Source: an uncultured Prevotellaceae bacterium (lineage in GTDB: Bacteria > Bacteroidota > Bacteroidia > Bacteroidales > Bacteroidaceae). Taken from it: DNA of 64,000 nucleotides. This document shows, one piece after another, positions 40,122 through 63,127 of this stretch. A program made the translations under genes and the position numbers. The first letter of the stretch is position 1, and each line of letters opens with the position of its first letter. The notes under the pieces were generated by a model, which saw only the letters and a program-made list of their open reading frames with translations, was not told the DNA's origin and did not search any database. Location of the stretch: contig CALBJW010000011.1 in assembly GCA_937893145.1 (NCBI GenBank), positions 682 to 64,681 on the forward strand. Direction: 5' to 3'.

Positions 40122-40149
40122 CCTCACGGTGGGTTGTGGGGAACGGTGG
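40122..40149 (+). repeat. Prophage intergenic hairpin repeat, copy 0 (degenerate)
   Basis: cctcacggtgggttgtggggaacggtgg. Confidence 0.5.
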
Positions 40150-40182
40150 TGGTGACAGCCAAGGACGGCTGTCAGAAAAAAG

Positions 40183-40238
40183 CAAGATGCGCATCATCTG
40201 GGTTTGTGGCTCAGGTGGTGCGCATCTTGTTTGTTTTT
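40183..40238 (+). terminator. Terminator-like long hairpin followed by a T-rich tract
   Basis: caagatgcgca ...25-nt loop... tgcgcatcttg gtttgttttt. Confidence 0.5.
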
Positions 40239-40285
40239 GCACACTATTGGGGTATGGTGTGCAATGGAAAGTGTTAAAAAATAGG

Positions 40286-40357
40286 TTAGGGTTACATTTA
40301 GGGTTGCAGTTTAGGGTTACATTTTTTGAAAACTTAGGGTTACATTTAGGGTTACAT
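40286..40357 (+). repeat. Five direct TTAGGGTTACAT 12-mers (3 contiguous + 2 contiguous)
   Basis: Copies start at 40286, 40298 (variant ttagggttgcag), 40311, 40334 and 40346. Confidence 0.9.
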
Positions 40358-40613
40358 TTGGCGATTTTTGGGGGTGCGTAGAAAAGGGGTGTAATGGTCG
40401 GAATATTGGCGTTTGTGCTGAATTTGGGAATATAGAGGGGGATGTATAACCCTATATTTTGGGGTTTACACATTATATTATATATGCGTATGCGTGTGTA
40501 TGTGAGGGTTTTAGGAGGATATGGTATGATAATTTGGGGTTAAAATGGGGTGCGTGCGTGGAAAATGGAGGTGTGTGGGAGGGGGTGTGCGTGTCGGGTG
40601 GTTTTGGTGTGTG

Positions 40614-40641
40614 CCCTCGGGAGAACCCTCGTGAACGGTGG
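40614..40641 (+). repeat. Prophage intergenic hairpin repeat, copy 1
   Basis: ccctcgggagaaccctcgtgaacggtgg. Confidence 0.7.
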
Positions 40642-40675
40642 TGGTGCTACCTGATGGGGATGATGAGGGGGTGTG

Positions 40676-41098
40676 TCAGCCAACCGCAGCAGGAGCGAGT
40701 TCTTCCGCATGGACAGACTCTACCCCTTTTGTTTCTTCGAGTTGTCGTATGCGTTCCTGTGCAGCTCCGAGTTGCATGGAGAGAGATTCATTTCGCTTCT
40801 GTAAATCATTGATCATTGCGAGAAGTTCTGTGAATGAAGCGGAATTGTTGGATTGTAAGGTGGAGTTTGCAGATGTGGTGAGCATTTCGCCTTCTCCAGT
40901 TAGGAGCCAATGAGCACTTAAATTAGGGTATGCATATAGAATCCTTTCAATATTTGATGAGTTGATGCTTTTAGTGATTCCCTTACGCATTTTACCCACT
41001 AAACCAACTGATAAGCCAGCATTGACTGTCATTTGGTTATCGTTTATGCCTGATTTATCCATAAAATATAGCAAGCGTTCTATAAAATTATCGTTCAT
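40676..41098 (-). CDS. Phage repressor (CI-type HTH, Bacteroidales variant) with C-terminal coiled coil
   Basis: MNDNFIERLLYFMDKSGINDNQMTVNAGLSVGLVGKMRKG...YPNLSAHWLLTGEGEM is the typical Bacteroidetes phage-repressor HTH. It is divergent from the early operon. Confidence 0.75.
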   Translation of the reverse strand: MNDNFIERLLYFMDKSGINDNQMTVNAGLSVGLVGKMRKGITKSINSSNIERILYAYPNLSAHWLLTGEGEMLTTSANSTLQSNNSASFTELLAMINDLQKRNESLSMQLGAAQERIRQLEETKGVESVHAEELAPAAVG

Positions 41099-41174
41099 AT
41101 TGAAAAAAAACTATATATTTTATTTGTTATATTGAAAATATTCTATATCTTTGCAACCGAATTAACAATGTTAA
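41097..41174. promoter_or_regulatory. Repressor/early-promoter control region
   Basis: Direct repeats atattgaaaa at 41097 and 41129, a TATCTTTG -7 box at 41146-41153, and the palindrome ttaaca-a-tgttaa at 41162-41174. Confidence 0.5.
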
Positions 41175-41229
41175 CACGCGCCAAATATACAAAAAAGGCG
41201 TGATTTGACATAAAAATAACGGTTAAAAA

Positions 41230-41403
41230 ATGGAAAAAGGTAAAATCAAGCGAATGTTGGACAAGGTTATGTTTGTTCACATGGATGGAGACGAAGAAGT
41301 GGTCTTCACTGTTAGGGATTTTATAGGCAGTATGGTGCTTTGTGTGCTATTGTTGCTTGTAGTAGGATGTGCTGGAACACTGGAGCATCAGTATGGATGG
41401 TAA
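41230..41403 (+). CDS. Small (57 aa) membrane protein, first early gene
   Basis: Below the ORF-track cutoff. Sequence MEKGKIKRMLDKVMFVHMDGDEEVVFTVRDFIGSMVLCVLLLLVVGCAGTLEHQYGW. It lies about 80 nt downstream of the TATCTTTG -7 box at 41146. Confidence 0.45.
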   Translation: MEKGKIKRMLDKVMFVHMDGDEEVVFTVRDFIGSMVLCVLLLLVVGCAGTLEHQYGW

Positions 41404-41407
41404 TATG

Positions 41408-41435
41408 CCCTACGGAAAAGCGAAGGGAACGGTGG
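41408..41435 (+). repeat. Prophage intergenic hairpin repeat, copy 2
   Basis: ccctacggaaaagcgaagggaacggtgg; starts 4 nt after stop 41403. Confidence 0.8.
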
Positions 41436-41487
41436 TCGCCGAAATCGGCATAGGAAACAGAAAACTATAACTAAAAATGATAAGGAA

Positions 41488-41871
41488 ATGAAAAAGTACA
41501 TTGCGATTGACAAAGAAATGCGTGAGAAGCTGATGAAGATCTTCGGATGCAGCAGAGTATGGGTGTGGAAGGCACTCAATTATGAGAACGACACTCCCAA
41601 GTGCATGAAGATACGCATGGCAGCCTTGAAGATGGGTGGTCATGTGGTGGGTGATGACACCGCGCTGGAAACGAGTTACGAGAGCAGCGAGGGTATCATG
41701 ATTCAGAAGTTCGGTCCGAGAGTGAGGCTGATAGTGGATATTGCCCATGAGGATGGCGAGTATGAGGTGGAGATAGATGGCATGGAATGGCAGAGAGGTA
41801 GTGCTAAGATGAGCATACCTGAGTTCATGAAGATGCAGGAGAGTGTGGACTTGATGGCTAAGAGCTTGTAG
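41488..41871 (+). CDS. Hypothetical early protein (Ner position, possible DNA-binding N-terminus)
   Basis: A 127-aa ORF between the repressor region and the transposase. Function is inferred from position only. Confidence 0.5.
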   Translation: MKKYIAIDKEMREKLMKIFGCSRVWVWKALNYENDTPKCMKIRMAALKMGGHVVGDDTALETSYESSEGIMIQKFGPRVRLIVDIAHEDGEYEVEIDGMEWQRGSAKMSIPEFMKMQESVDLMAKSL

Positions 41872-41929
41872 TGACAAATTAGGAACAGTAAAGCGGTGCG
41901 ACAATGGCGCACCGAAGAGAACAGAAACG

Positions 41930-43981
41930 ATGGAGTATTACGGAAGAATATTGTGTATATCGGCAAATGACCTTACAAGGGTGGGCGCAGATGGCAGTGC
42001 TGCCATCATGAGCGTGTCAAACTATAAGGCAATGTGCCATCGCGGTCAGTTGAACGTGATACGCCAGGGCAAGGGGCTTGGCAACTATGCGCTTGTGGAG
42101 GTTGCCACTCTTCCAAAGAGATTCAAGGATATGGTAACTGAGAGATTCGGTACTGGAGAAGACCACATTCTGAGAGACTGGTTTGAACAGCACTGGTGTG
42201 TGGATGCTAAGGCAAGAGAGTTCTATACAAGATACAGGTTTGTGGATGGCAGCTCTCTCCCTCCAGAGCATGTGATACAATACACTCATGATGCGAGCAC
42301 TCTGAAGGCAGTGATCAGTCTGATGGCAGACACGAAAGCAATGCGCAGAGCCATGCAGGGCGAATCGGTGAACTGGAGCGAAATGGTAGGAGCCTTGAAG
42401 TTCTACCAAGAGCAGTTTGGGCATTCTCTGCCATTGAGTCCGAACCGATTCAAGACAAAGGTGAGGGAGTTCAAGGAAGGCGGTTATGAGGTGCTTATCT
42501 CGAAGAAGTTCAAGAATGACAATTCAAGGAAGGTGAGCTACAAGATAGAACGCTTGATTCTAAGCCTTGACAGTCTGCCAGAGAGACCATTTAACAGTAC
42601 GGTGGCAGAGTTGTATAATGAGTTTGTGATGGGAGCAATACACGTTGTGGATCCAGAGACTGGAGAGGTGTTCAATCCTATCGAGTTCACAGACAAGAAG
42701 GGCAATCCCCTTGTGCTGAGTGAGGCAACCATTGCGAACTATCTGAACAAGCCAAAGAACAAGGCTCTGAGGGCAAAGCTGCATGATGGTCAGTGGGAGT
42801 TCAATAATGAGTACCGACCACACCATCTGAGACAGAGTCCTCAATGGGCATTCTCGAAGCTCAGTGCTGATGACCGTGACCTTCCAAGAAAGATGCACAA
42901 CGGTCAGAGGGTGAAGGCATACTATGTGTATGACGTGGCAAGCGGTTGCGTTGTAGGATATGCTTACAACAGACTGAAGACTGCCGATTTGTTCCTGGAC
43001 TGCATGAGGAACATGTTTCAGACTATAGACAGGAACGGATGGTACATGCCAGCGCAGATAGAGGTGGAGCACCACTTGGTGAACAACTTCGCTGACGGTT
43101 TGATGAAGGCAGGTGTGGTGTTCCCTCTTGTAAGATGGTGTAATCCTGGCAACTCTCAGGAGAAGCGTGCAGAGCACTTGAACAGAGCCAAGAAGTACGG
43201 AACGGAGAAGGAGCTGCAGGTGGGTATCGGAAGATGGTACAGCAGACTGGAGGCTAACCGTCCTAAGTCAGAGAAGGTGTATGATGAGTTCAATGACACC
43301 TACAAGGAGAAGACCTACGACTATGAGGAACTTGTGGCAGACGATGTGAGAGCCATCTATGAGTTCAACCATCAGAAGCATCCTAACCAGAAGCGTTATC
43401 CTGGCATGACTCGCTGGGATGTGCTGGAGAAGATGCAGAATCCAGACCTTGCACCTGTAGATAAGGCGGTACTCTACCGATACATCGGTGAGCATACGGA
43501 AACAAGCATCAGAAGGAACATGTACTGCACGGTGATGTATAACGAGTATGTGTTGCCATCGCCAAGGGAGATTGAGAAGCTGGAGCCAAGAAACATGAAG
43601 GTGGATGCTTACTATCTACCAAATGAGGATGGAAAGATTGGCGAGGTCTATCTGTATCAGAATGGTGCTTACATAGCGAAGTGCGAACAAGCTGTAAGGT
43701 ACAATGAGGCTACTGCAGAGCAGACTGAGGCAGATTTGGAAGCTTACACTGAGCAGAGCAAATATGTGAGCCAGTTCGATAAGATGATGAAGGATGAGAA
43801 GGTGAAGAAGGTGGTGGTGATGAAGAAGGAAGAGGTGGATGAGATTATCTCGGAAGCAGAGTGTCAAAGCCACAGCACAAATCCATCTGCAGGACTGATG
43901 GGAACGATGGCAGATGAGGATGATCTGAGCGAATGGATGGACGCTGGTGCTTGGAAAGGAAGAGGAAGGGAGTCGATATAG
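41930..43981 (+). CDS. Mu-type DDE transposase (MuA-like, rve core)
   Basis: 683 aa. Central region ...SADDRDLPRKMHNGQRVKAYYVYDVASGCVVGYAY...IEVEHHLVNNF fits a DDE/RNase-H-like core. It is followed directly by a MuB-like ATPase. Confidence 0.75.
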   Translation: MEYYGRILCISANDLTRVGADGSAAIMSVSNYKAMCHRGQLNVIRQGKGLGNYALVEVATLPKRFKDMVTERFGTGEDHILRDWFEQHWCVDAKAREFYTRYRFVDGSSLPPEHVIQYTHDASTLKAVISLMADTKAMRRAMQGESVNWSEMVGALKFYQEQFGHSLPLSPNRFKTKVREFKEGGYEVLISKKFKNDNSRKVSYKIERLILSLDSLPERPFNSTVAELYNEFVMGAIHVVDPETGEVFNPIEFTDKKGNPLVLSEATIANYLNKPKNKALRAKLHDGQWEFNNEYRPHHLRQSPQWAFSKLSADDRDLPRKMHNGQRVKAYYVYDVASGCVVGYAYNRLKTADLFLDCMRNMFQTIDRNGWYMPAQIEVEHHLVNNFADGLMKAGVVFPLVRWCNPGNSQEKRAEHLNRAKKYGTEKELQVGIGRWYSRLEANRPKSEKVYDEFNDTYKEKTYDYEELVADDVRAIYEFNHQKHPNQKRYPGMTRWDVLEKMQNPDLAPVDKAVLYRYIGEHTETSIRRNMYCTVMYNEYVLPSPREIEKLEPRNMKVDAYYLPNEDGKIGEVYLYQNGAYIAKCEQAVRYNEATAEQTEADLEAYTEQSKYVSQFDKMMKDEKVKKVVVMKKEEVDEIISEAECQSHSTNPSAGLMGTMADEDDLSEWMDAGAWKGRGRESI

Positions 43982-43983
43982 AA

Positions 43984-44011
43984 CCCTGCGGAAAAGCGCA
44001 GTGGACGGTGG
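43984..44011 (+). repeat. Prophage intergenic hairpin repeat, copy 3
   Basis: ccctgcggaaaagcgcagtggacggtgg; starts 2 nt after the transposase stop. Confidence 0.8.
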
Positions 44012-44066
44012 CTGCCGAACACGGCATTAAAATAGGATTAGAAAACAATTAAAATTTAATAAGACA

Positions 44067-44939
44067 ATGGAGATTACAAAGGAAATCAAGGAGCGTATAA
44101 TCGGTGCAATCATGATGGATCGTGAGAATTATACGAGTGACAACAAACATGCGGTGAGCTTGGGTATCAGCGCGAGTGTTTACAATGCCATCAAGAAGGG
44201 CAACTATGAGAAGCAGGTGAGCGATGCTAACTGGATATGCATTGCAAGAAGGCTTGGCGTGGTACTGAAGAAGGAAATGGAATGGAAGGCAGCAGAGACT
44301 CCTACTTTCGTGTTCGTGAGCGAACAGCTGGAAGTGTGCCAGCAGAGCGGACTGAGTGCCATGCTCTGTGATATGCCAAACATCGGCAAGACATTCACGG
44401 CAAGAGCATACGTGAGAACACACAAGAACTCGGTGTATATCGACTGCAGTCAGGTGAAGACAAAAGTGAGACTGATACATAAGATTGCCAAGGAGTTTGG
44501 TGTGGGTGTGAATGGTCGATACACAGATGTGTATGAGGACTTGGTGGCATATCTCAGAACCATTGACAGCCCTCTGGTCATTCTTGATGAAGCAGGAGAT
44601 CTCCAGTATGAGGCATTCTTGGAACTGAAGGCTCTTTGGAATGCTACAGAACGAGCTTGTGCATGGTACATGATGGGTGCTGACGGATTGAAGGCAAAGA
44701 TACAGCAAGCCATCGAGAGAAAGAAGGTGGGATATACGGAAATGCTCAGTCGATTCGGTGACACTTACAGTAGGGTGACTCCTGATGACGCTAAGGAAAG
44801 GATGAAGTTCCTGAAGGCACAAGCTGCTATCGTGGCGAAGGTGAATGCTCCTGAAGGTACGGATGTGATGCAGATTGTGCATCTGAGCGGTGGAGGTTTG
44901 AGAAGGGTTTACACTGAGATTGAGAAACTGAGGAGATAG
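44067..44939 (+). CDS. MuB-like AAA+ transposition ATPase
   Basis: N-terminal HTH-like region, Walker A DMPNIGKTFTA, Walker B LVILDEAGDL. It sits immediately after the transposase. Confidence 0.75.
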   Translation: MEITKEIKERIIGAIMMDRENYTSDNKHAVSLGISASVYNAIKKGNYEKQVSDANWICIARRLGVVLKKEMEWKAAETPTFVFVSEQLEVCQQSGLSAMLCDMPNIGKTFTARAYVRTHKNSVYIDCSQVKTKVRLIHKIAKEFGVGVNGRYTDVYEDLVAYLRTIDSPLVILDEAGDLQYEAFLELKALWNATERACAWYMMGADGLKAKIQQAIERKKVGYTEMLSRFGDTYSRVTPDDAKERMKFLKAQAAIVAKVNAPEGTDVMQIVHLSGGGLRRVYTEIEKLRR

Positions 44940-44948
44940 ATGATAAGA

Positions 44949-44977
44949 CCCTGCAGCAAAACTGCAGGGCACAGTGG
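44949..44977 (+). repeat. Prophage intergenic hairpin repeat, copy 4
   Basis: ccctgcagcaaaactgcagggcacagtgg; starts 9 nt after the MuB-like stop. Confidence 0.8.
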
Positions 44978-44982
44978 CGAGA

Positions 44983-45213
44983 ATGGAACATAAAGATTAT
45001 AAACCTGGGACGCGGTTCCTGTTCTTGGTGGACTACTTTGAGGCAAGCGGAATCCTTGATGACTGGATGGAGGGTGACTGGAAGTGCGATTTGAGAATGA
45101 GGCGTGCTAAGACACCTAAGCGTGTGGTGGTGGAAGTGGAGGATGTGATGATGGCATACAGGATTCATCAGTGGCATCCGAATGCAAAGGTAGCGATACA
45201 AGAACCGAAGTAA
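44983..45213 (+). CDS. Hypothetical early protein (76 aa)
   Basis: The ORF-track entry starts at a GTG (44974) inside the intergenic repeat. I prefer the ATG at 44983 (MEHKDYKPGTRFLF...). Confidence 0.5.
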   Translation: MEHKDYKPGTRFLFLVDYFEASGILDDWMEGDWKCDLRMRRAKTPKRVVVEVEDVMMAYRIHQWHPNAKVAIQEPK

Positions 45214-45215
45214 TG

Positions 45216-45243
45216 CCCTCGGGAAAACCCTCGGGAACGGTGG
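45216..45243 (+). repeat. Prophage intergenic hairpin repeat, copy 5
   Basis: ccctcgggaaaaccctcgggaacggtgg; starts 2 nt after stop 45213. Confidence 0.8.
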
Positions 45244-45262
45244 TAAACTAAAAAAAGAAACT

Positions 45263-45901
45263 ATGGTAAAGAAGAAAAGAGCATACAGTCCGACGGATGT
45301 GCTGAAGATGAAGCGTCCTTGCTACGAGTTTGATGGTGCTTGGGAGCATAGCATGGGAAAGCCTGCAAAGACTGGTACCTGGATTATATGGGGTCCAAGC
45401 GGTAATGGCAAGAGTTCATTTGTGATGCAGTTGGCTAAATATCTGTGTGGATTCGAGAAGGTCATATATGACAGTCTGGAGGAGAGCACAGGACTGAGTT
45501 TCCAGAAGAGTCTGAAAAGGCACAATATGGGCGATGTGAGCAAGAAACTCATGATTCTTGACCGTGAGAGTGTGGAGAGTCTTAGCGAGCGTCTGAGGAA
45601 GCCTAAAAGCCCAAAGGTGGTGATTATTGACTCGTTTCAGTATTCGGGATTGAACTACAACACTTATATCAGGATGAAGGAGGAGTTCAGTAACAAGCTT
45701 ATCATCTTCATCAGTCATGCTGAAGGACTGAGACCTGCAGGAAGAGCTGCAAAGAAGGTAGAGTATGATGCTGACATAAAGATAAGGGTGGAAGGCTTCA
45801 GAGCGATGTGCAAGAGCCGATTCATGGATAAACCAGGAGTGCCATTTACGGTATGGGAAGAAGGTGCAGCTCGGTACTGGATGGGAAAGGAACAAACTTA
45901 A
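45263..45901 (+). CDS. RecA-fold P-loop ATPase (Sak4/AAA_24-like, inferred)
   Basis: Walker A IIWGPSGNGKSSF and Walker B KVVIIDSFQY; 212 aa. Confidence 0.55.
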   Translation: MVKKKRAYSPTDVLKMKRPCYEFDGAWEHSMGKPAKTGTWIIWGPSGNGKSSFVMQLAKYLCGFEKVIYDSLEESTGLSFQKSLKRHNMGDVSKKLMILDRESVESLSERLRKPKSPKVVIIDSFQYSGLNYNTYIRMKEEFSNKLIIFISHAEGLRPAGRAAKKVEYDADIKIRVEGFRAMCKSRFMDKPGVPFTVWEEGAARYWMGKEQT

Positions 45902-45917
45902 CTAATAATACAGAAAC

Positions 45918-46181: not shown

Positions 46182-46182
46182 T

Positions 46183-46593: not shown

Positions 46594-46604
46594 AAGCCGT
46601 TAAG

Positions 46605-46632
46605 CCCAGCGGAAAAGCGCAGGGAACGGTGG
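46605..46632 (+). repeat. Prophage intergenic hairpin repeat, copy 6
   Basis: cccagcggaaaagcgcagggaacggtgg; starts 11 nt after stop 46593. Confidence 0.8.
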
Positions 46633-46682
46633 TAACAAAACGGCGAGTCGATGACTCTCCGAACATAAACAAAATAAACAAT

Positions 46683-47341: not shown

Positions 47342-47370
47342 CCCCTGCTGAAAAGCGCAGGGAACGGTGG
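47342..47370 (+). repeat. Prophage intergenic hairpin repeat, copy 7
   Basis: cccctgctgaaaagcgcagggaacggtgg; starts 5 nt after stop 47336. Confidence 0.8.
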
Positions 47371-47788: not shown

Positions 47789-48211
47789 AAAGAATGTCTC
47801 ATATACCTTTATGCCTCCAGGGAGTGGGTAGTATTGGGATTTTTTGCGAATGAGTTGGGGGGAGCTGATGGCAGAACCATCAGGAACGGTGGCACGCCAA
47901 CCATGGAGGAGAGTGATAAGCTTTTGGGAAAGGGCTTGTCGCTCTTGAATTTTATCGGTGGTGGTGGAACCATAGTGTGTGTCGTCGTAGCAGTCGATGG
48001 CGAGACGGACAGAGAATGTTGTTTCGGAGCGTTGCGAGAGGCTGTGAGTGGTTGTCCATTCGGAAACAGTATTGCCTACGAGGACACAAGGGAATGTGAC
48101 TGGGTAGGTGTCTTCTTGTGTTTCGAGTTGACCGTAATCTTCATCTACAAGAGAGAGTTCTGGAAGATTTTGTGCGATGTGATTGATGAGGGGGAGAAGT
48201 ATATGTTCCAT
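47762..48211 (-). CDS. Hypothetical virion/head-tail protein (last gene of the leftward morphogenesis block)
   Basis: A 149-aa ORF coupled to the upstream G-like gene (stop and start are 1 nt apart). It converges on and overlaps 47516-47788 by 27 nt. Confidence 0.5.
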   Translation of the reverse strand: MEHILLPLINHIAQNLPELSLVDEDYGQLETQEDTYPVTFPCVLVGNTVSEWTTTHSLSQRSETTFSVRLAIDCYDDTHYGSTTTDKIQERQALSQKLITLLHGWRATVPDGSAISSPQLIRKKSQYYPLPGGIKVYETFFSVRLSEEF

Positions 48212-48900: not shown

Positions 48901-50241
48901 TTATTTATGATAGCCTGTTATAATGTCATCAGGCTTCTTTTTTTCTATGGTGTATAATACTTCAGATCCAAATAACTTATGCACTTTAACATTTGCCCAA
49001 TATATATCATTACCTATTTTTAGTGAATAATATGTGAAGTATTCTGCTTCTGGATGTTTCTTTCTGTCTGGGTTCTTTGGGTCGAACTTTGGACTTGAAG
49101 AATCGTATGGACGGTTTTCTGCCCACCCTTCATATTTCCATCCTTTTATCTTACTCAAATCAAAGGTTGTAAGCCATTTCATGAGGTTGGCATCTTCACG
49201 ACCATGTTCGTAAACATCTTGAAGGGAACGGCGAAGAACAATAAGTTTTCCAGTGCTAAATTCTGCCCCTGATATTTCTTTTCCATCATACTGGTCAATC
49301 TGCTTCTTAACCTTTTTTAAGCGTGCTGCTGCATTCTTATCAGCTCTGTTCATCCCAGGAATGCAACCATCTATAAACTGACAGTTGTAGCAGTGTTTCT
49401 TTTGTGCCGTGAACGGCAGCCAACGGGATAAGCCGTTGGAATGGGAGCTACTGGCATGGAAAGGGCATGAGGAACAGTCGTCGGGGAAGTAGGGATGATC
49501 CTGAGAAAAGACTTGGGGAGAGCCTGCTTTGGTTTTGAGACCTTGATGAGAGTCGGAACCAGGGGCGGTTCCTCCTTCAACCTTGCCGTCAGGGATTGGA
49601 GTGACAGGGTCGGTGGTGGAGGAGAGGGAGCACTTGCAGTTCCAACGATCGCCAGGGCGGTGGTCGTTCCAGAAGGAATCATCAACAGGACGGACTGTGT
49701 TCCAAAAGACTTGGTGGTCAGCTCCTGGATGGGCAGATGTGGAAGGCATCCATTTGAGATTAGGGAGAATGTCTTTCTCTGCTTGGAACTGTTGCCAGTC
49801 AGCAGCCTGATGAGCACGGATGATTGCCGTGTCATATTCTGTCTGAAGCCACGAACCTACTTGATGGGATGCTATTGGTGCAACATCCTCAGACCACTGT
49901 TTGAATGACTTTAGATTGCCATTAGAATCAAGGAGCTGAGCTGCCATATCACGCTGGAGGCGGTGAACCTTGAATGCAGCAAAGACCTCGTTGGAATGAT
50001 GGAGAGCATTGCGGAAGGCATGGTCTGGGTCATAGGCTGATTGCGAAATGCCTTTGTCTGTGGCTTGGGTTATGATGCGAGCAGTTTCTTGGAAAAGACC
50101 AGGATCGAGTTCCGTGAGAGGGTCAAGGTCAGAAGAGACATAGATGGCACGGAGTGCATCGGCGAGGACTGAGGAATCAAAGCTGAACCCTTCTCCAATA
50201 GCACGAGGAACTTGTATGCCATAAAGGTCATTCATTACCAT
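48901..50241 (-). CDS. MuF/SPP1-gp7-type head morphogenesis protein with Cys-rich linker and ~150-aa low-GC C-terminal cargo domain
   Basis: The MuF core has ...AHQAADWQQF...WMPSTSAHPGADHQVFWNTVRPVDDSFWNDHRPGDRWNCKCS. It is followed by DDCSSCPFH...HCYNCQFIDGC and an AT-rich terminal module ...LIVLRRSLQDVYEHGRED...YFTYYSLKIGNDIYWANVKVHKLFGSEVLYTI. Confidence 0.75.
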   Translation of the reverse strand: MVMNDLYGIQVPRAIGEGFSFDSSVLADALRAIYVSSDLDPLTELDPGLFQETARIITQATDKGISQSAYDPDHAFRNALHHSNEVFAAFKVHRLQRDMAAQLLDSNGNLKSFKQWSEDVAPIASHQVGSWLQTEYDTAIIRAHQAADWQQFQAEKDILPNLKWMPSTSAHPGADHQVFWNTVRPVDDSFWNDHRPGDRWNCKCSLSSTTDPVTPIPDGKVEGGTAPGSDSHQGLKTKAGSPQVFSQDHPYFPDDCSSCPFHASSSHSNGLSRWLPFTAQKKHCYNCQFIDGCIPGMNRADKNAAARLKKVKKQIDQYDGKEISGAEFSTGKLIVLRRSLQDVYEHGREDANLMKWLTTFDLSKIKGWKYEGWAENRPYDSSSPKFDPKNPDRKKHPEAEYFTYYSLKIGNDIYWANVKVHKLFGSEVLYTIEKKKPDDIITGYHK

Positions 50242-54269: not shown

Positions 54270-54298
54270 CCCTGCGGAAAAACCGCAGGGAACAGTAG
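54270..54298 (+). repeat. Prophage intergenic hairpin repeat, copy 8
   Basis: ccctgcggaaaaaccgcagggaacagtag; lies in the leader of the endolysin gene. Confidence 0.8.
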
Positions 54299-56049: not shown

Positions 56050-56051
56050 GA

Positions 56052-56079
56052 CCCAACGTGAAAGCGAAGTGAACAGTGG
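56052..56079 (+). repeat. Prophage intergenic hairpin repeat, copy 9 (degenerate stem)
   Basis: cccaacgtgaaagcgaagtgaacagtgg; starts 2 nt after stop 56049. Confidence 0.65.
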
Positions 56080-57083: not shown

Positions 57084-57089
57084 GCTTGA

Positions 57090-57116
57090 CCTCGGTAAAA
57101 CCCTCGGAAACGGGGG
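57090..57116 (+). repeat. Prophage intergenic hairpin repeat, copy 10
   Basis: cctcggtaaaaccctcggaaacggggg; starts 6 nt after the capsid stop. Confidence 0.7.
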
Positions 57117-57120
57117 CTGA

Positions 57121-57148
57121 CCTGCAGCAGAACTGCAGGGAAAATAAC
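57121..57148 (+). repeat. Prophage intergenic hairpin repeat, copy 11 (tandem with copy 10)
   Basis: cctgcagcagaactgcagggaaaataac. Confidence 0.7.
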
Positions 57149-57165
57149 TAAATAATGAGTAAGGG

Positions 57166-57603: not shown

Positions 57604-57895
57604 TCTGGCTGAAGGTGCTGGATATTACAAGAAAAGTGGTCAGGCAACAGTTGGAGTGCGAGCGTCTGGTGACACAGTATATATAGACGCTACGTGTGAC
57701 AGCCTATTGACACGGGTCTCGTATTACGAACGACAAAACGCCAATTTGAAACGTGTTCTGGAAGCGGCAAACAAGAAAGTAGAAGAGACCAAGGAAATAC
57801 AGAGCTCGAACGGCAAGAAGATGCTGTGGGGGATGCTCGCCTCCTTTGTTGTGGGGACAGGAACAGGAATCGCTGTTAAGGCTAAATTTTTCTGA
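57365..57895 (+). CDS. Lipoprotein-signal protein with C-terminal TM helix (unimolecular-spanin-like topology)
   Basis: MKQLVNSMKLSGLLLVASIMMFALSVQSC (lipobox-like) and the C-terminal MLWGMLASFVVGTGTGIAVKAKFF. It starts inside the previous ORF. Confidence 0.5.
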   Translation: MKQLVNSMKLSGLLLVASIMMFALSVQSCRSVRVDEKKEVETSVQTMGMDSIASEMKIMTYQAVPMSEVKLEIPMMNLRNLAEGAGYYKKSGQATVGVRASGDTVYIDATCDSLLTRVSYYERQNANLKRVLEAANKKVEETKEIQSSNGKKMLWGMLASFVVGTGTGIAVKAKFF

Positions 57896-57988
57896 CTGAG
57901 CTACCTTAGAACATTAGCAGGAGACTATAAATCTGCTGCAGGAACTATGGTGGCAAAAACAAATTCGATAACTTAAAAGTAACAAAAA

Positions 57989-58426
57989 ATGCAAGACACA
58001 GGTGGTTACAGAGAAGGTACGGACCTTATCCTCAGTGTGAACAGCAAGGCACTTGGACATAGCACAACTTGTAAGATCAGTGACAGCACTGAGACAGGTG
58101 AGCGTGTGACAAAGGAAGCTCAGACTGGCAAATGGAAAGAGAAGTACGTGAAGAGTCTTTCTGAGACAGTAACGGCAGAGGGATTCACATACGAGGGTGA
58201 CGCAATGGGTTATCCAGACTTAAAGACAATCATGCTGGCAGCACAGCCAGTGACCCTCACTTATTCTTACCGTGCGAATGCCAATAACGGCACTTCGGTT
58301 ACAACAGCATACACAGGCGAGTTCATTATCACAAGTCTTGAAGAGACTGGTGATGCAGGTGACGACGCTAAGTGGAATGTGACATTCGAGAACTCGGGTG
58401 CAGTTACTCCAGTAGGCGGTGAATAA
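57989..58426 (+). CDS. Major tail (tube) protein, siphovirus type
   Basis: 145 aa. It sits immediately upstream of the chaperone pair and the tape measure gene. The C-terminal ...YTGEFIITSLEETGDAGDDAKWNVTFENSG pattern is typical of tail tube proteins. Confidence 0.65.
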   Translation: MQDTGGYREGTDLILSVNSKALGHSTTCKISDSTETGERVTKEAQTGKWKEKYVKSLSETVTAEGFTYEGDAMGYPDLKTIMLAAQPVTLTYSYRANANNGTSVTTAYTGEFIITSLEETGDAGDDAKWNVTFENSGAVTPVGGE

Positions 58427-58440
58427 CAATGGCTACTGAA

Positions 58441-58468
58441 CCCTGCGGAAAACCGCAGGGAACGGTGG
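58441..58468 (+). repeat. Prophage intergenic hairpin repeat, copy 12
   Basis: ccctgcggaaaaccgcagggaacggtgg; starts 14 nt after the tail-tube stop. Confidence 0.85.
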
Positions 58469-58499
58469 CATCTTCAACGAAAACGATAACGAAAACAGA

Positions 58500-59274: not shown

Positions 59275-59315
59275 AGCGTGAACATTGTTAATTACGGTGC
59301 AAATATAAGAAAAAA

Positions 59316-62300
59316 ATGGCAAACGAGATAAACTATAAGATAAAAATATCTACTGATGGCGAAAAAAGCTTTCAGGAAATAGCAGTGGAGGCAAAATCGG
59401 CAGATGAAGCTATCGAAAAGGTGGTGAACACTGTCAACAAAGCCTCAGATAAGTTCAAAGAAATGGCTGCAACGAGTCTTACCCTGAATAACCTATCGAA
59501 TGCTGTACAACAGTTGGACTCTATGTTTCAGGGGATGGTGGGAAGTAGCCAGAGCTTTGATGCTTCGATGCGCGCCGTAAATACAATGGCTGGCAAGGGA
59601 GAGGCAGAGTTTGAAAAGTTGAAAGGTTCGGTTGCCGAACTCGGCAAGGAAATACCAAAAACGAGAGAAGCACTTGCTGATGGTTTATACCAGGTAATAT
59701 CAAATGGCGTTCCTGAGGATAATTGGATTTCGTTCTTGGATAAATCAGCGCGAGCTTCGGTTGGAGGCATTGCGGACCTTGGGCAGACAGTGACTGTGAC
59801 TTCTACAATCATCAAAAACTATGGTATGGAGTGGGAGGCAGCAGCAGAGATACAAGATAAGATTCAAATGACTGCCAAGAATGGTGTGACCTCATTTGAA
59901 CAGCTTGCAAGTGCCTTGCCACGAGTGAGTGGTAACGCTGCCACCCTTGGCGTGAGCATAGATGAACTGATGGCTACCTTTGCAACTCTTACAGGGGTGT
60001 CAGGCAACACAGCCGAAGTCAGCACGCAGTTGGGTGCTATCTTCACAGCATTGATAAAGCCATCGAGTGAAGCTGCAAGCATGGCTGAGGATATGGGCAT
60101 TAAGTTTGATGCAGCAGCAATTAAGGCAAAAGGAGGAATGCAGAATTTCCTCCAGTCATTGGATCGTGATGTGAAGACATACGCATCTGCCCATGATATG
60201 CTGTCAGAAGAAATATATGCTAAGTTGTTTGGAAGTGCAGAAGCATTGAGAGCGTTGATACCATTGAATGGTGAACTTGCTGATACATTTGCAAGCAATG
60301 TTGATGCTATGTCCAATAGTGCAGGTACCATAGATGAAGCCTTTGAACAGATGGCAAGCACTGGAGAAAGTGCCACACAAATGCTGAGGAATCAGATAGC
60401 GGCATTCACAGACTGGATAGGTACAGCTGTGGGTACTGCCGCCCCATACGTGTCATTTGCCAGCAATACATTGGTAGCGTTTACTAATGCTATGCAGCTT
60501 ATCACATCGTTGCGAGGAATGAGTTCTGCCATGAAAGCAAACTCTGCTGTTATGGAAATCGCTTCTGTTCATCAAAAATCTGTTGCTGCTGCAGAGCGAT
60601 TACTTGCAGCAAGTGGATATACTGCTGCTGCAGGAACTACGGCATTGAATGTTGCTGTTGGAATTTTGGAAGGCATACTGACTGCAGGACTTGGTGTTGC
60701 TATTTTTGCTATTGTCGGTTACTTCACAAGTTTGGGAGACTCTGCTGAAGAAGCAGCTGGTAAACTCGACTCACTGAAGGAGGCAGAAGATGCTTTCTCT
60801 AATGCTGTTTCGACTGCTAAGAGTGAGATTGAAATGGAGAAAGTAAAGCTGCAGGAACTTATAAATAGCCATACAGATGCAACAGAAACGATTGAACAAC
60901 TTAATCAGAAATATGGTGAAAGTTTTGGCTATCATAAGACTGCTGCAGAATGGTACGATACGCTTGTTTCCAAGAGCAAGGTGTATTGTGAACAGTTAGG
61001 CTATGAAGCACAGGCGAAAGTGCTTGCAGCGAAAAAGGCTGCTGCGGAATTGAAGATGGCACAAATGGAGGCTGATGGTACTGACAAAACAAAGACTTGG
61101 AAGCTCGGGTCTAAACTTGATGCGGCAGGTAACAGAAATATCACCATCAACAGAGTAGAGGTTGAGAGTGATGACTATAAGGCACTGAAGGAGGAAGTTG
61201 CCGACCTCGGCAATCAGTTTGATGTGTGTGTGAAGAAGAGTGCTGAAGCTGCAAAAGCAATGCAGACCAACGCTAATGCGTCAGGAACTGTAGCTAAAGC
61301 CGTAGGATGGCAACAGATGAGTTATGAAGCTCTTGGCAAGGCTATCGAGGAGCAGAAGAAGAAAGTTGGAAAACTTGCTGGTGTCAATGCCTCGGAAGCA
61401 AACAAGGAAGCAACAACTCTCAAACAGATGGAGGCGAGGTATAAGAAACTTGGCAAAGACTACGGACTCAGCAGTGCAGGAAGCGTAAGAAATAGCGGCA
61501 AGACAAAGGATGGTCTTGATGGAAGCAAACTTGTGGCAGATGCGGAGACTTATAAGGAACTCGGAAACAATATCAAGTATTATGAGCAGCAGCTGGAGAA
61601 GACTAAACCATCAGAAAAGGAGACCATATCGAGACTTGTTCAGAACATTGCAGGTTTGAAGGAGAAGCAGGCTGCCATCAAGGAGGTTCTTGATGCTGCA
61701 GGGCGACCAACAGAACTGAATACGCTGGAAAATATTGATAAGGAGATTCAGTATCAGCAGGGACTGAGGTCGAAAGCAACGGCAGAAAACATTGGGGGGA
61801 TAGACAAAGAAATACATCGTTTGAATGGTCTTAAAAGGGCATTAGAAGACAGTGGACATGCGAGTGTCGGTGTTGATCAGATTCATACATACGAGGAATT
61901 GGAAGCCGAAATCGGCTATTATGAGGGGAAGTTGAGAACTGCCAGTGAGACAGAACGCGTGGAGATACAGAAGCAGATTCTCTCCCTTCAGAACCTCAAA
62001 AAGGAATGGGACGGCGTATTGGCAAGCGTTGGTGCTCCTGATGAAAGCAAAGTCAACACCATCGAGGAACTGGAGGCTGCCATAACTTATTACAGCAACT
62101 TGCAGAAGAAGCAGAGTGCGGAGGAGGTGGCAAATACTCAGGAGGTGATAAACAGACTCGAAGGCAAGAAAAAGGTACTCCTGGATATAGCAAGCATACC
62201 TACTATGGCGAATGAGCTTGCAGAACTCGGCAAGCTCGGAAATGCGGAGCTGAAGATGGAACTTCAACTGATAGGCATTGAAGGTATCAAGAATAAGATC

Positions 62301-63092
62301 CGTGGATTGCAGAAGATGCTTGATGACACCAAGAATCCTTTGGGCAAGGAACAGCGTCAGGAGGTGATGAAGATGATGGCTGCATACCAAGGTTATGAGA
62401 ATGTTCTGAAGAAACAGAATGTGACCATCAGCCAAACATGGGGCAGCATCAAAGGCATTGGCAATAGTGTGGAGTCACTGACAGAAACACTGAAAGGAGA
62501 TGGAAACGCTTGGGAGAAAGTGTGTGGTGTGATGGATGGTATGCTTGGGCTTTATGAAGGGATTAAGGGTATAGTGGAGATAGTGCAGATATTGACGGCT
62601 GTAACCACAGCACATGCTGCTGCAAAGATTGCAGAAGCAGGAAGTGAAACAACTGAATCTGGAACATTAGCGGCAAATGCTGCAGCTGCTGCAACTGCTG
62701 CTGCCACGACCACAGCTGCAAATTCTATAGCAACAGCATCATGGACAGCACTCGCTGCTGCTGAATTTATGGCTGCACATGCAGAAATCCCTTTTGCAGG
62801 TTTCGGTATAGCAAGCGGTTTCATTGGTGGTATGGAGGCTCTTGTGGCTGCATGTGCGATTCCTAAATTTGCTAATGGCGCAATAGCATACGGTCCTACT
62901 CTTGGCTTGTTTGGTGAGTATGCTGGAGCGAGTTCAAACCCAGAGGTTGTGGCTCCATTGAGTAAGCTGCAGGATTTGCTTGATACGGATAACGGAGGAG
63001 GTATGCTGGCAGGCAAGGTGAAGTTTGAAATAGACGGAAGAAAACTTGTTGGCGTGCTCCAGAAGGAAGATAAAATGAAGAATAGAACTTAA
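59316..63092 (+). CDS. Tail tape measure protein (1258 aa)
   Basis: Long coiled-coil/Ala-rich protein with a hydrophobic C-terminal segment (...AAAAATAAATTTAANSIATASW...GFGIASGFIGG). It sits downstream of the G/GT pair. Confidence 0.85.
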   Translation: MANEINYKIKISTDGEKSFQEIAVEAKSADEAIEKVVNTVNKASDKFKEMAATSLTLNNLSNAVQQLDSMFQGMVGSSQSFDASMRAVNTMAGKGEAEFEKLKGSVAELGKEIPKTREALADGLYQVISNGVPEDNWISFLDKSARASVGGIADLGQTVTVTSTIIKNYGMEWEAAAEIQDKIQMTAKNGVTSFEQLASALPRVSGNAATLGVSIDELMATFATLTGVSGNTAEVSTQLGAIFTALIKPSSEAASMAEDMGIKFDAAAIKAKGGMQNFLQSLDRDVKTYASAHDMLSEEIYAKLFGSAEALRALIPLNGELADTFASNVDAMSNSAGTIDEAFEQMASTGESATQMLRNQIAAFTDWIGTAVGTAAPYVSFASNTLVAFTNAMQLITSLRGMSSAMKANSAVMEIASVHQKSVAAAERLLAASGYTAAAGTTALNVAVGILEGILTAGLGVAIFAIVGYFTSLGDSAEEAAGKLDSLKEAEDAFSNAVSTAKSEIEMEKVKLQELINSHTDATETIEQLNQKYGESFGYHKTAAEWYDTLVSKSKVYCEQLGYEAQAKVLAAKKAAAELKMAQMEADGTDKTKTWKLGSKLDAAGNRNITINRVEVESDDYKALKEEVADLGNQFDVCVKKSAEAAKAMQTNANASGTVAKAVGWQQMSYEALGKAIEEQKKKVGKLAGVNASEANKEATTLKQMEARYKKLGKDYGLSSAGSVRNSGKTKDGLDGSKLVADAETYKELGNNIKYYEQQLEKTKPSEKETISRLVQNIAGLKEKQAAIKEVLDAAGRPTELNTLENIDKEIQYQQGLRSKATAENIGGIDKEIHRLNGLKRALEDSGHASVGVDQIHTYEELEAEIGYYEGKLRTASETERVEIQKQILSLQNLKKEWDGVLASVGAPDESKVNTIEELEAAITYYSNLQKKQSAEEVANTQEVINRLEGKKKVLLDIASIPTMANELAELGKLGNAELKMELQLIGIEGIKNKIRGLQKMLDDTKNPLGKEQRQEVMKMMAAYQGYENVLKKQNVTISQTWGSIKGIGNSVESLTETLKGDGNAWEKVCGVMDGMLGLYEGIKGIVEIVQILTAVTTAHAAAKIAEAGSETTESGTLAANAAAAATAAATTTAANSIATASWTALAAAEFMAAHAEIPFAGFGIASGFIGGMEALVAACAIPKFANGAIAYGPTLGLFGEYAGASSNPEVVAPLSKLQDLLDTDNGGGMLAGKVKFEIDGRKLVGVLQKEDKMKNRT

Positions 63093-63099
63093 AAAATAA

Positions 63100-63127
63100 C
63101 CTGCATTAAAACTGCAGGGCATAATGG
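63100..63127 (+). repeat. Prophage intergenic hairpin repeat, copy 13
   Basis: cctgcattaaaactgcagggcataatgg; starts 7 nt after the TMP stop, and its 3' end contains the next ATG. Confidence 0.75.

What the first reader, a model, noticed from the sequence alone, without database searches (positions are those of the whole stretch)
40122..63127. Prophage-wide family of a 7-8 bp GC hairpin plus conserved GGGAACGGTGG tail, placed just after stop codons of rightward genes
I find 14 copies, plus a degenerate 15th at about 57917-57953, of CCCTGCGG-AAAA(G)-CGCAGGG-AACGGTGG and close variants. All copies are on the plus strand and all lie inside the prophage. None occurs in the 39 kb of host DNA or in the leftward (minus-strand) morphogenesis block. 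Ten copies begin only 2-14 nt after the stop codon of a plus-strand gene (41403, 43981, 44939, 45213, 46593, 47336, 56049, 57083, 58426, 63092). Some stem variants keep pairing (CCCTGCAG/CTGCAGGG versus CCCTGCGG/CCGCAGGG), which looks like compensatory change and argues for a structural, probably RNA-level, role. The single-stranded tail GGGAACGGTGG is the most conserved part. The hairpins lack U tracts, so they are not classical terminators. Distances to the next start codon vary from 0 to about 60 nt, so they are not simple ribosome-binding sites either. Candidate roles are mRNA 3'-end protection or processing sites, termination-reinitiation coupling in an SD-poor Bacteroidetes context, antitermination RNA elements, or binding sites for a phage protein. 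I know of no described equivalent for Mu-like phages.
Basis: seen in the sequence. Interest (0 to 1): 0.7.

Follow-up and report, generated by a model that had tools for sequence, protein, structure and literature searches.

The report
Strand-polar hairpin repeats in Mu-like prophage
A Mu-like prophage of a Prevotella-type bacterium is peppered with about 17 copies of a 32-base hairpin-plus-tag repeat that all lie on one DNA strand and come and go between near-identical phages, so it looks like a REP-like invasive repeat rather than a fixed gene-expression signal.

Summary
The repeat is real. A covariance model finds 13 significant copies, all on the + strand and all inside the prophage, with none in 39 kb of host DNA. 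Two or three weaker copies are also present. The stem is supported by covariation, and the A-rich loop and the 3' tag AACGGTGGY are the most conserved parts.

The "RNA signal of rightward genes" reading is weakened on four counts:
- One window copy (47865) lies antisense inside a leftward gene. In sister phages, + strand copies sit between and inside leftward head genes, so orientation follows the genome strand, which also carries a gene-independent G>C skew.
- 116 related phages lack the element and have plain A-rich junctions.
- Phages with identical MuB differ site by site in presence, stem type and partial deletions.
- The same element occurs sporadically in other Prevotellaceae contigs, once in frame inside a glycosyltransferase gene.

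Best reading: a REP-like hairpin repeat with a single strand orientation, spread by copying or gene conversion and tolerated just after stop codons. It probably acts incidentally as an intercistronic mRNA hairpin and a recombination junction. No mobilising enzyme or RNA effect was shown. It is a new variant of a known kind and of moderate interest.

The parts
40122..40149 (+). Weak copy (stem CCTCAC/GTGGGG with a G-U pair, exact tag GGGAACGGTGG)
   Evidence: Model hit of 16.2 bits, E 0.039. Conserved in all 7 variants.
40614..40641 (+). Copy of the CCCTCGGG direct-repeat subtype. It lies 35 nt beyond the stop of the leftward gene 40676-41098.
   Evidence: 41.8 bits. Point polymorphisms among variants. 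Fold is no better than shuffles.
41408..41435 (+). Copy 4 nt after the stop of 41230-41403, followed by a second small hairpin (41435-41451)
   Evidence: 45 bits. In variant L263 a CTGCAG-type stem replaces this one at the same site.
43882..43910 (+). Decayed sense-strand copy inside the C-terminal coding part of the MuA transposase gene
   Evidence: Custom scan. In variant L261 the orthologous site has a perfect CCATCAG/CTGATGG stem with tag GAACGGTGGCA, scoring 16 bits. Translation shown.
43984..44011 (+). Copy 2 nt after the MuA stop
   Evidence: 42.4 bits. L121 and L263 carry the other stem subtype at this site.
44949..44977 (+). Copy 9 nt after the MuB stop (CTGCAG stem, 5-nt loop, tag CACAGTGG)
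   Evidence: 22.2 bits. Predicted energy -14.9 kcal/mol, z -2.6.
45216..45243 (+). Copy 2 nt after the stop of 44974-45213 (CCCTCGGG subtype)
   Evidence: 46.4 bits. The left arm is deleted in variant L262.
46605..46632 (+). Copy 11 nt after the stop of 46156-46593. This site is a junction where an 87-aa ORF cassette is present or absent.
   Evidence: 46.9 bits. Hairpin deleted in L265 and L266, and subtype swapped in L261. Cassette polymorphism shown.
47343..47370 (+). Copy 6 nt after the stop of the DUF3164 gene. It lies upstream of a separate inverted repeat (about 47395-47432) that ends in a short T run.
   Evidence: 41 bits. Sequence.
47865..47892 (+). Copy with a fully different stem (CTGATGG/CCATCAG). 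It is antisense inside the leftward tail-terminator-like gene 47762-48211.
   Evidence: 35.9 bits. Gene call and Pfam hit. Read as ATVPDGSAIS. The alternative allele has a canonical stem plus a duplicated tag, a 12-nt in-frame difference.
49418..49449 (+). Decayed copy (stem CCAACGG/CCGTTGG), antisense inside the leftward Mu F-like gene
   Evidence: 15.9 bits in the window, 31.3 bits in L121. Present in all variants.
54270..54298 (+). Copy with a perfect 8-bp stem. Its tag supplies the stop codon of the small ORF 54134-54298.
   Evidence: 31.4 bits. Predicted energy -16.4 kcal/mol, z -5.6. Absent from 4 of the 6 variants that cover this site.
56052..56079 (+). Copy 2 nt after the protease stop, with the stem almost lost
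   Evidence: 36.7 bits. Predicted energy -1.3 kcal/mol. Absent in L272 and L273.
57089..57148 (+). Head-to-tail pair of copies (57089-57116 and 57120-57148) after the major capsid gene stop
   Evidence: 38 bits for the first copy. The second was found. The 53-nt pair is duplicated at another intergenic site in the sister contig at 94% identity.
58441..58468 (+). Canonical copy 14 nt after the stop of the major tail gene
   Evidence: 48.1 bits, the best hit. Predicted energy -16.5 kcal/mol, z -3.7. Absent in L272 and L273.
63099..63127 (+). Copy with a degenerate tag, 6 nt after the tape-measure gene stop
   Evidence: Found. The sister contig has an extra canonical unit inserted head-to-tail here.

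Best explanation
The unit is a roughly 32-nt module. It has a GC-clamped 7-8 bp stem (outer CCC/GGG) with an A-rich tetraloop or pentaloop, followed by the unpaired tag AACGGTGG(C/T).

It behaves as a REP-like dispersed palindromic repeat of Prevotellaceae mobile DNA that has expanded in one lineage of Mu-like transposable phages.

Shown:
- Copies are gained, lost, partly deleted, duplicated head-to-tail, and overwritten by other subtypes between nearly identical phages.
- They sometimes carry flanking leader sequence or a neighbouring small ORF with them.
- They always lie on one genome strand, whatever the direction of the local genes.

Inferred:
- Propagation is a DNA-level process that treats the two strands differently. 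Two candidates are hairpin-and-tag recognition on the strand left single-stranded by one-directional Mu-type replication, and tag-anchored template switching or gene conversion.
- Only insertions in harmless places survive: immediately after stop codons but ahead of the A-rich unstructured leader of the next gene, and in C-terminal tails or linkers of proteins.
- In rightward operons the copies are transcribed as stable hairpins just past the stop codon. There they probably act as REPs do in E. coli, as barriers to 3'-to-5' decay and decouplers of neighbouring cistrons, and they serve as recombination junctions. No single site is essential.
For: Real and structured:
-.

Strand polarity independent of genes:
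- All hits in the window and in eight variants are on the + strand.
- L121 12494 and 12971 lie between the leftward portal, adaptor and TerL genes.
- L121 8635, 10273 and 11179, and window 47865 and 49418, lie inside leftward genes.
- The same antisense arrangement occurs in the distant phages L246 and L056.

Genome-strand asymmetry:
- Cumulative GC skew rises across the whole prophage.
- Third-codon-position GC skew, measured on the + strand, is +0.22 for rightward genes and +0.35 for leftward genes.

Lineage-specific and dispensable:
- 0 hits in 116 relatives.
- Plain A-rich or 6-nt junctions at the orthologous gene boundaries.
- Per-site presence/absence, stem swaps, hairpin deletions and tag duplication among phages with identical MuB.
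- A copied 53-nt pair and a tandem extra unit.
- Element plus leader copied together.
- An 87-aa ORF cassette at an element boundary.

Outside the phage:
- Prevotella and Alloprevotella MAGs and metagenome contigs.
- One in-frame, sense-strand copy in a GT92 glycosyltransferase gene, conserved in three contigs.

REP precedent:
- Small tagged palindromes lying mostly downstream of ORFs, with some units inside genes (PMC3733652, read).
Against: - No transposase or other partner protein was identified. The one candidate gene that co-occurs (44974-45213) also occurs in two element-free phages.
- No clean target-site duplication was found. Gains usually come with diverged flanks, which fits recombination better than precise transposition.
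- Unlike REPs and REPINs, there are no inverted dimers, the tag is neither GTAG nor CGTC, and chromosomal density is low.
- Outside the phage head block, most copies are in the sense orientation and directly follow stop codons. This would also fit an RNA-level role.
- The strong conservation of loop and tag could reflect function rather than a requirement for mobilisation.
- The replication direction of this phage is inferred from skew only.
Confidence: 0.5

Rival explanations
1. A dedicated cis-acting RNA element of the phage's polycistronic mRNAs. A protein recognises the post-stop hairpin and its GGGAACGGUGG tag. That protein could be an endoribonuclease, a stabilising factor or an antiterminator, and it would set transcript ends, segmental stability or coupling to the next cistron.
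For: - Ten copies begin 2-14 nt after stop codons.
- Covariation supports the stem.
- Loop and tag are conserved in sequence.
- Most copies outside the phage also follow a gene in the sense orientation.
- The hairpins stand out in mRNA that is otherwise G-rich and C-poor.
Against: - In some variants, up to about a third of the copies (5 of 11 in the partial contig L274) lie in the leftward head block in the 'wrong' orientation for those mRNAs.
- Sites are polymorphic among near-identical phages.
- 116 relatives do without the element.
- Several copies have lost the stem.
- One copy sits in the sense orientation inside a conserved coding sequence.
- G-U mismatches do not exceed A-C mismatches (9 against 7).
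- No Rfam family matches.
Confidence: 0.25
2. A DNA-level orientation-dependent signal used by the phage itself. Examples would be a recognition site for a replication, recombination-protection (Chi-like) or packaging factor that reads one strand, in the manner of Chi or KOPS in bacterial chromosomes.
For: - Absolute single-strand orientation that matches the genome-wide G>C skew.
- The tag ends in GGTGG, which resembles E. coli Chi, GCTGGTGG (from my own knowledge).
Against: - The tag alone is not over-represented in 1.78 Mb of element-free relatives: 48 observed against 47.7 expected.
- A Chi- or KOPS-type site needs no hairpin.
- Relatives lack the element entirely.
- Sites are dispensable.
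- Copies occur singly in unrelated chromosomal loci.
Confidence: 0.1
3. Solitary CRISPR-repeat-like units. The 28-nt length, stem-loop and 8-nt 3' handle recall type I-E and I-F repeats. Such units could act as Cas6 processing sites or as RNA anti-CRISPR decoys.
For: The size and architecture resemble Cas6-type repeats (sequence; from my own knowledge). Phage-borne solitary repeats are known as RNA anti-CRISPRs (from my own knowledge).
Against: - Scans of one genome per species for 185,579 species, and of the metagenome collection, with a 21-nt core gave only single matches per locus and no arrays.
- No cas genes are nearby.
- About 17 copies spread between genes is unlike the known solitary repeat units.
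- Copies occur inside coding sequences.
Confidence: 0.04
4. Intrinsic transcription terminators or attenuators between genes.
For: GC-rich hairpins in intergenic positions.
Against: - No U tract follows any of them.
- The terminator scan flags none of them on the + strand.
- The phage has ordinary hairpin-plus-T-run terminator candidates elsewhere (for example 39673-39691).
- Copies lie within operons and inside coding sequences.
Confidence: 0.03

Closest known systems
REP elements (repetitive extragenic palindromes), including the GTAG- and CGTC-tagged superfamilies (Di Nocera et al. 2013, PMC3733652)
   Same: - A 20-40 nt GC-rich imperfect palindrome with an unpaired conserved tag at one end.
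- Stem of about 8 bp and loop of 4-5 nt, the dimensions of CGTC-type REPs.
- Mostly downstream of ORFs, with occasional units inside genes.
- Subfamilies with different stems.
   Different: - The tag is 8-9 nt (AACGGTGGY), not GTAG or CGTC.
- Copies are strictly co-oriented and pair head-to-tail, whereas REPs typically form inverted (head-to-head or tail-to-tail) dimers.
- Density is high in a phage and very low in sampled chromosomal DNA.
- No RAYT association is shown.
IS200/IS605-family elements and their small derivatives, which transpose as single-stranded DNA (from my own knowledge)
   Same: Recognition of a hairpin plus an adjacent short single-stranded motif. Strong orientation bias tied to one strand in replication.
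   Different: Those elements have two different hairpin ends and are at least about 100 bp long. No Y1 transposase, no defined target sequence and no precise excision or insertion were found here.
PeSL mobile regulatory cassettes of T4-type phages (Arbiol et al. 2010, PMC2839356)
   Same: Repeated intergenic stem-loop modules in a phage. They mark sites where small ORFs are inserted, deleted or exchanged between close relatives.
   Different: PeSLs contain a sigma-70-type early promoter, and their stem-loops act as terminators. This element has no promoter or terminator features and is only about 32 nt long.
Rickettsia palindromic elements and yeast mitochondrial GC clusters (from my own knowledge)
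   Same: Invasive GC-rich palindromes that insert into intergenic DNA and, in frame, into protein-coding genes.
   Different: Different hosts, sizes and sequences. They are not known to be strand-polar or concentrated in phages.
Stoperators of cluster A mycobacteriophages (from my own knowledge)
   Same: Dozens of short asymmetric sites in short intergenic gaps of a temperate phage, with a strong orientation rule.
   Different: Stoperators follow the direction of transcription and are repressor-binding duplex sites without a hairpin. Here orientation does not flip with transcription, and copies also occur outside phages.

Membership tests
REP / REPIN | Short (20-40 nt) GC-rich imperfect palindrome able to form a stem-loop | tested here: met
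   Covariation on 50 distinct copies. Canonical copies fold at -15 to -16.5 kcal/mol with z of -2.6 to -5.6.
REP / REPIN | Unpaired GTAG or CGTC tag at one end | tested here: not met
   A conserved unpaired tag exists, but it is AACGGTGGY (reverse complement RCCACCGTT). Definition taken from PMC3733652.
REP / REPIN | Tens to hundreds of copies dispersed over the host chromosome | tested here: inconclusive
   0 copies in 39 kb of host flank and 0 in about 86 kb of related chromosomal loci. Single copies were seen in several other Prevotellaceae contigs. No complete host genome could be scanned.
REP / REPIN | Inverted dimers (REPIN/BIME organisation) | tested here: not met
   Only head-to-tail pairs were seen (57089/57120; L159 at about 17018/17049; L243 5633/5678). 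No opposite-strand copy occurs in any phage contig.
REP / REPIN | Associated RAYT (Y1 transposase) gene flanked by the repeats | not tested
   No Y1 transposase was seen among the annotated phage genes. Host genomes could not be surveyed.
REP / REPIN | Predominantly extragenic and downstream of ORFs | tested here: met
   Ten window copies lie 2-14 nt after stop codons. The same holds in other contigs. A minority lie inside genes.
Intrinsic terminator | GC-rich hairpin immediately followed by a U tract | tested here: not met
   The tags are G/A-rich. None was flagged on the + strand.
CRISPR repeat / solitary repeat unit | Identity or close similarity to a repeat that forms regularly spaced arrays in a host genome | tested here: not met
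   The 21-nt core gave only single matches per locus in the genome and metagenome scans.
PeSL-type mobile regulatory cassette | Promoter consensus joined to the stem-loop | tested here: not met
   No conserved sequence lies beyond the tag. No promoter-like motif is associated.
PeSL-type mobile regulatory cassette | Serves as a junction for insertion or deletion of small ORFs between close relatives | tested here: met
   An 87-aa ORF is present or absent directly after the tag of the 46605 copy. Element-plus-leader cassettes are copied together.
Stoperator-like repressor sites | Orientation follows the local direction of transcription | tested here: not met
   + strand copies lie between and inside leftward genes.
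Any Rfam family | Match to a curated covariance model | tested here: not met
   Only chance-level hits at E of 0.7-4.

The most novel reading that the evidence does not exclude
The hairpin plus the AACGGTGGY tag is the specific substrate of a dedicated strand-reading enzyme. One candidate is a nuclease or transposase for single-stranded DNA that exploits the one-directional replication of a Mu-like phage to multiply a 32-nt passenger. The other is a hairpin-specific endoribonuclease that cuts phage polycistronic mRNAs at each cistron boundary. Either way the family would be a previously undescribed system with a trans-acting partner, not merely passive repeats.
Probability: 0.15. Interest if true: 0.75.

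Novelty: new variant of a known kind. Interest (0 to 1): 0.45.

Why it matters
- Small palindromic repeats are usually studied in chromosomes. Here one family is concentrated at about one copy per 1.5 kb in a transposable phage and is absolutely strand-polar, on a genome whose base skew is also strand-wide.
- If the polarity reflects copying on single-stranded replication intermediates, these phages give a compact natural system for studying how hairpin repeats spread. Sister genomes already capture gains, losses and conversions.
- The repeats also mark junctions where small genes are swapped, so they bear on how mosaic phage genomes are built.
- For annotation, they explain spurious GTG/TTG ORF starts inside the GGTGG tag and odd short peptide insertions (ATVP...) in head and tail proteins.
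- It would matter much less if the copies prove to be inert debris.

Tried and rejected
1. Rfam scan of 38-64 kb at E <= 5 gave only chance hits.
2. A 14-nt tag pattern in viral contigs was too unspecific. Only 6 of 120 loci had a real hairpin.
3. A search for a different, lineage-specific repeat in element-free relatives found none.
4. The Chi-like hypothesis failed. The tag alone is not enriched in 1.78 Mb of related phages.
5. ECF-sigma promoter and Shine-Dalgarno-like readings of GGAAC and GGTGG were rejected. Nothing downstream is conserved, and distances to start codons range from 8 to 145 nt.
6. The small gene 44974-45213 was tested as a phage-encoded partner. It is present in all five element-bearing Mu-like phages that cover that region. 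It is absent next to MuB in the 37 element-free loci, apart from one weak partial match elsewhere in L153. It is also present in the element-free L237 and L197.
7. Target-site duplication: one suggestive TTAGAT repeat was seen. The flanks are diverged haplotypes, so this remains unproven.
8. G-U against A-C mismatch asymmetry was tried as a test of RNA folding on one strand. The count was 9 against 7, which is uninformative.
9. BLAST of the unit against GenBank phages and plasmids gave no match.
10. Host identification by exact protein look-up gave no names. The look-up with the tape-measure protein found nothing.
11. MAFFT misaligned the copies that have 5-nt loops. The model was therefore seeded from the ten copies of equal length.

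Full report
**Setting**

Bases from about 39.4 kb to the end of the window are a Mu-like transposable siphophage. The main genes are:
- MuA transposase, 41930-43981.
- MuB-like ATPase, 44067-44939.
- A DUF3164 gene.
- A leftward block, 47762-54025. It encodes tail-terminator-like, Phage_tail_S-like, Mu F-like, Mu portal, Gp36-like adaptor, large terminase and a small HTH/terminase-like protein.
- Rightward genes after that: amidase, ClpP-type protease, major capsid, major tail and tape-measure.

The same phage, with 100% identical MuB, sits at different chromosomal sites in other samples, as expected for a transposable phage. The host is inferred to belong to the Prevotellaceae, for two reasons:
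- The same repeat occurs in contigs titled Prevotella or Alloprevotella.
- TAnnTTTG motifs typical of Bacteroidetes promoters are present (their identification as promoter motifs is from my own knowledge).

No source name for the window's own proteins could be retrieved.

Yes.
- The tag GGGAACGGTGG (at most 1 mismatch) occurs 9 times against 0.33 expected, always on the + strand.
- A covariance model seeded from ten equal-length copies was run over all 64 kb on both strands with filters off. It finds 13 copies at E <= 0.04, all on the + strand and all within 40120-58470. Nothing in the 39 kb of host DNA scores better than E = 0.8.
- Two more copies (57120 and 63099) have degenerate tags.

Three corrections are needed:
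- The '15th' copy at 57917 is not supported.
- Copy 47865 lies antisense inside the leftward gene 47762-48211, where it encodes ATVPDGSAIS.
- A decayed copy at 49418 lies antisense inside the Mu F-like gene.

**Anatomy**

An alignment of 63 hits, 50 of them distinct, from the window and other loci gave these results:
- The stem has 83.5% standard pairs.
- 29 cells are changed on both sides, against 9.0 expected. None of 500 shuffles reach this, and the versions with slid partners score far lower.
- Clear compensated stems include CTGATGG/CCATCAG, CCAACGG/CCGTTGG, CCCGTAG/CTACGGG, CCCCACG/CGTGGGG and CCTTGCGG/CCGCAAGG.
- The outer CCC/GGG pairs, the A-rich loop and the tag AACGGTGG(C/T) are the most conserved columns. 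Nothing beyond the tag is conserved.

Not every copy is a good hairpin:
- The CCCTCGGG...CCCTCGGG subtype is a direct repeat that folds no better than shuffles.
- Copy 56052 has essentially lost its stem.
- G-U mismatches (9) do not outnumber A-C mismatches (7). There is therefore no sign that pairing is selected on one particular strand.

**Orientation follows the genome strand, not the genes**

The closest relative, IMG/VR contig 3300001598_000098 (loci L121 and L159), is 91-97% identical in DNA. It carries 19 copies at E < 0.1 in its first 28 kb, all on the + strand. Several are in the leftward block:
- 12494 and 12971 lie in the gaps between the leftward portal, adaptor and terminase genes.
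- 8635, 10273 and 11179 lie inside leftward genes.

Five further variants with identical MuB gave 56 hits, and four late-region loci gave 19 more. All are on the + strand. Variant L274 has five copies in the leftward block. Two distant phages show the same antisense arrangement in their portal/terminase block:
- L246, with portal 32% identical.
- L056, with portal 55% identical.

The + strand also carries a gene-independent base asymmetry:
- Cumulative GC skew rises throughout the prophage.
- Third-codon-position GC skew, expressed on the + strand, is +0.22 in rightward genes and +0.35 in leftward genes.

**Not a conserved phage feature, and highly dynamic**

Element-free relatives:
- The 37 loci with MuB 43-77% identical and the 79 loci with capsid protein 79-84% identical contain no copy.
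- They have no alternative repeat either.
- Their MuA-to-MuB junctions are plain A-rich leaders. In most of them MuB and the next gene are 6 nt apart.

Among the phages with identical MuB, individual sites vary in many ways:
- Sites are present or absent: 54270, 56052, 58441, and the two head-block gaps.
- One stem subtype replaces another at 41408, 43984, 46605 and 47865.
- The hairpin is precisely deleted, leaving CCC plus the tag, at the 46605 site in L265 and L266.
- The left arm is lost at the 45216 site in L262.
- The tag is duplicated at the 47865 site, a 12-nt in-frame change.
- A 53-nt head-to-tail pair is copied to another intergenic site.
- An extra unit is inserted head-to-tail after the tape-measure gene.
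- In L121 the element and its downstream leader are copied together.
- An 87-aa ORF is present or absent immediately after the tag of the 46605 copy.

Gains usually come with diverged flanks. Recombination or conversion is therefore better supported than precise transposition, and no reliable target-site duplication was found.

**Outside this phage**

A 21-nt core pattern found the element in these places:
- Three Prevotella MAGs and one Alloprevotella MAG.
- Other viral contigs. Some are Mu-like with 3-4 co-oriented copies.
- 12 metagenome contigs.

The contexts include:
- After an SSB-like gene and upstream of a solute-symporter gene.
- Next to AbiC-like and AAA_15 genes.
- In a G-rich, hairpin-dense spacer upstream of a GHMP-kinase gene.
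- In frame and in the sense orientation inside a GT92 glycosyltransferase gene, conserved in three contigs.

Density is low outside the phage. Orthologous GHMP-kinase loci (about 86 kb fetched, partly redundant) have none, and the window's own host DNA has none. The family is therefore neither phage-exclusive nor a dense chromosomal REP. It looks like a repeat of Prevotellaceae mobile and variable DNA that has expanded in this phage lineage.

**Mechanism**

What is shown:
- A structured, tagged palindrome.
- Strict genome-strand polarity.
- Rapid birth, death and conversion of copies.
- Survival in places where an insertion does no harm.

What is inferred:
- Copying depends on a process that treats the two strands differently. 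Two candidates are recognition of the folded hairpin and tag on the strand exposed by one-directional Mu-type replication, and tag-anchored template switching.
- Selection removes insertions that would put structure into the A-rich leader. Bacteroidetes genes are thought to need an unstructured leader for initiation without a Shine-Dalgarno sequence (from my own knowledge). This would explain the placement just after stop codons without invoking a function.
- Where the copies are transcribed in rightward operons, stable hairpins immediately after a stop codon would be expected to act as REPs do, as local barriers to decay and decouplers of cistrons. The 2013 survey of tagged REPs gives the general REP properties (PMC3733652).
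- The cassette-junction behaviour resembles that of PeSLs in T4-type phages (PMC2839356).

Rivals were considered:
- A dedicated RNA signal cannot be excluded, but it conflicts with the orientation data, the site polymorphism and the copies inside coding sequences.
- A Chi-like or KOPS-like DNA signal is not supported, because the tag alone is not enriched in relatives.
- CRISPR-like, terminator, promoter and ribosome-binding-site readings were tested and rejected.

**Verdict**

Its central idea, an RNA element tied to rightward genes and special to the phage, is not supported.

The element is best filed as a new, strand-polar variant of REP-like palindromic repeats. It does not meet the strict REP or REPIN criteria for tag, inverted dimers or chromosomal abundance. 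No partner enzyme and no RNA effect have been demonstrated.

Noticed in passing
window 39555-39785 and 40289-40357: There are nine copies of GG(G/C/T)TTAC(A/G)T in two clusters about 750 nt apart at the left end of the prophage. They are plausibly transposase and repressor binding sites (attL and an operator/enhancer region), as in Mu.
   Followed up: no
window 41435-41451, 44011-44027, 41895-41913, 46642-46657: Other small intergenic hairpin families lie right behind or near the main element: GYYGCCGAAnnCGGCAT, GGTGCGACAATGGCGCACC and GGCGAGTCGATGACTC. Related forms recur in sister phages and in other Prevotellaceae contigs, for example GTTGCCATGACATGGCAAC in L249 and TGCCGAACTCGGCAT in L261.
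   Followed up: partly
window 47762-54025: The head and packaging genes, plus two tail-completion genes, are transcribed leftward, opposite to the rest of the phage. Even so, third-codon-position GC skew still favours G on the + strand (+0.35). The strand asymmetry is therefore independent of coding direction.
   Followed up: yes
L261 9659-9922, L265 7312-7575 (site of window 46633): An 87-aa ORF is present in three variants and absent from the window and three others. It is inserted exactly between the tag of the 46605 copy and the leader of the DUF3164 gene.
   Followed up: partly
L250 647-678, L254 2913-2944, L260 3688-3719: The element sits in frame and in the sense orientation (encoding LPCGKAQGTVA) just after the DFDEF motif of a GT92-family glycosyltransferase gene. 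It is conserved in three metagenome contigs that differ by synonymous-looking changes in the flanks.
   Followed up: partly
window 54134-54298: This small ORF ends in a TAG that is part of the element's tag (AACAGTAG). Variants without the element have a 48-aa ORF that ends differently. Likewise, the GTG and TTG 'starts' of the mechanical ORFs at 46629 and 47834 lie in or beside elements.
   Followed up: partly
window 36000-40000: GC content drops to 0.31-0.34 at the insertion site. The 353-aa ORF 38399-39460, just left of the prophage end, has no Pfam or PHROG match and is absent from the sister contigs.
   Followed up: no
L253 8060-8320: A G-rich spacer of about 260 nt upstream of a GHMP-kinase gene is packed with at least six different small hairpins on one strand. 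One uses the same stem as the element (CCCTGCGG/CCGCAGGG) but has a GGGAA loop and no tag. Orthologous loci have unrelated sequence there.
   Followed up: partly
L243 1413-1522: In the Alloprevotella contig, a masked run of N is flanked on both sides by copies or part-copies of the element ending in the same ...GGTGGCTGCTGGCGGGA. The masked stretch may hide a tandem cluster.
   Followed up: no
window 57089-57116 and related copies with tag AACGGGGG: In the CCCTCGG subtype the tag often reads GGGGG instead of GGTGG. This lets the right 'arm' pair with the tag (CCCUCG-GRAA-CGGGGG) and gives an alternative hairpin. No TGCGG-type copy shows this tag change.
   Followed up: partly
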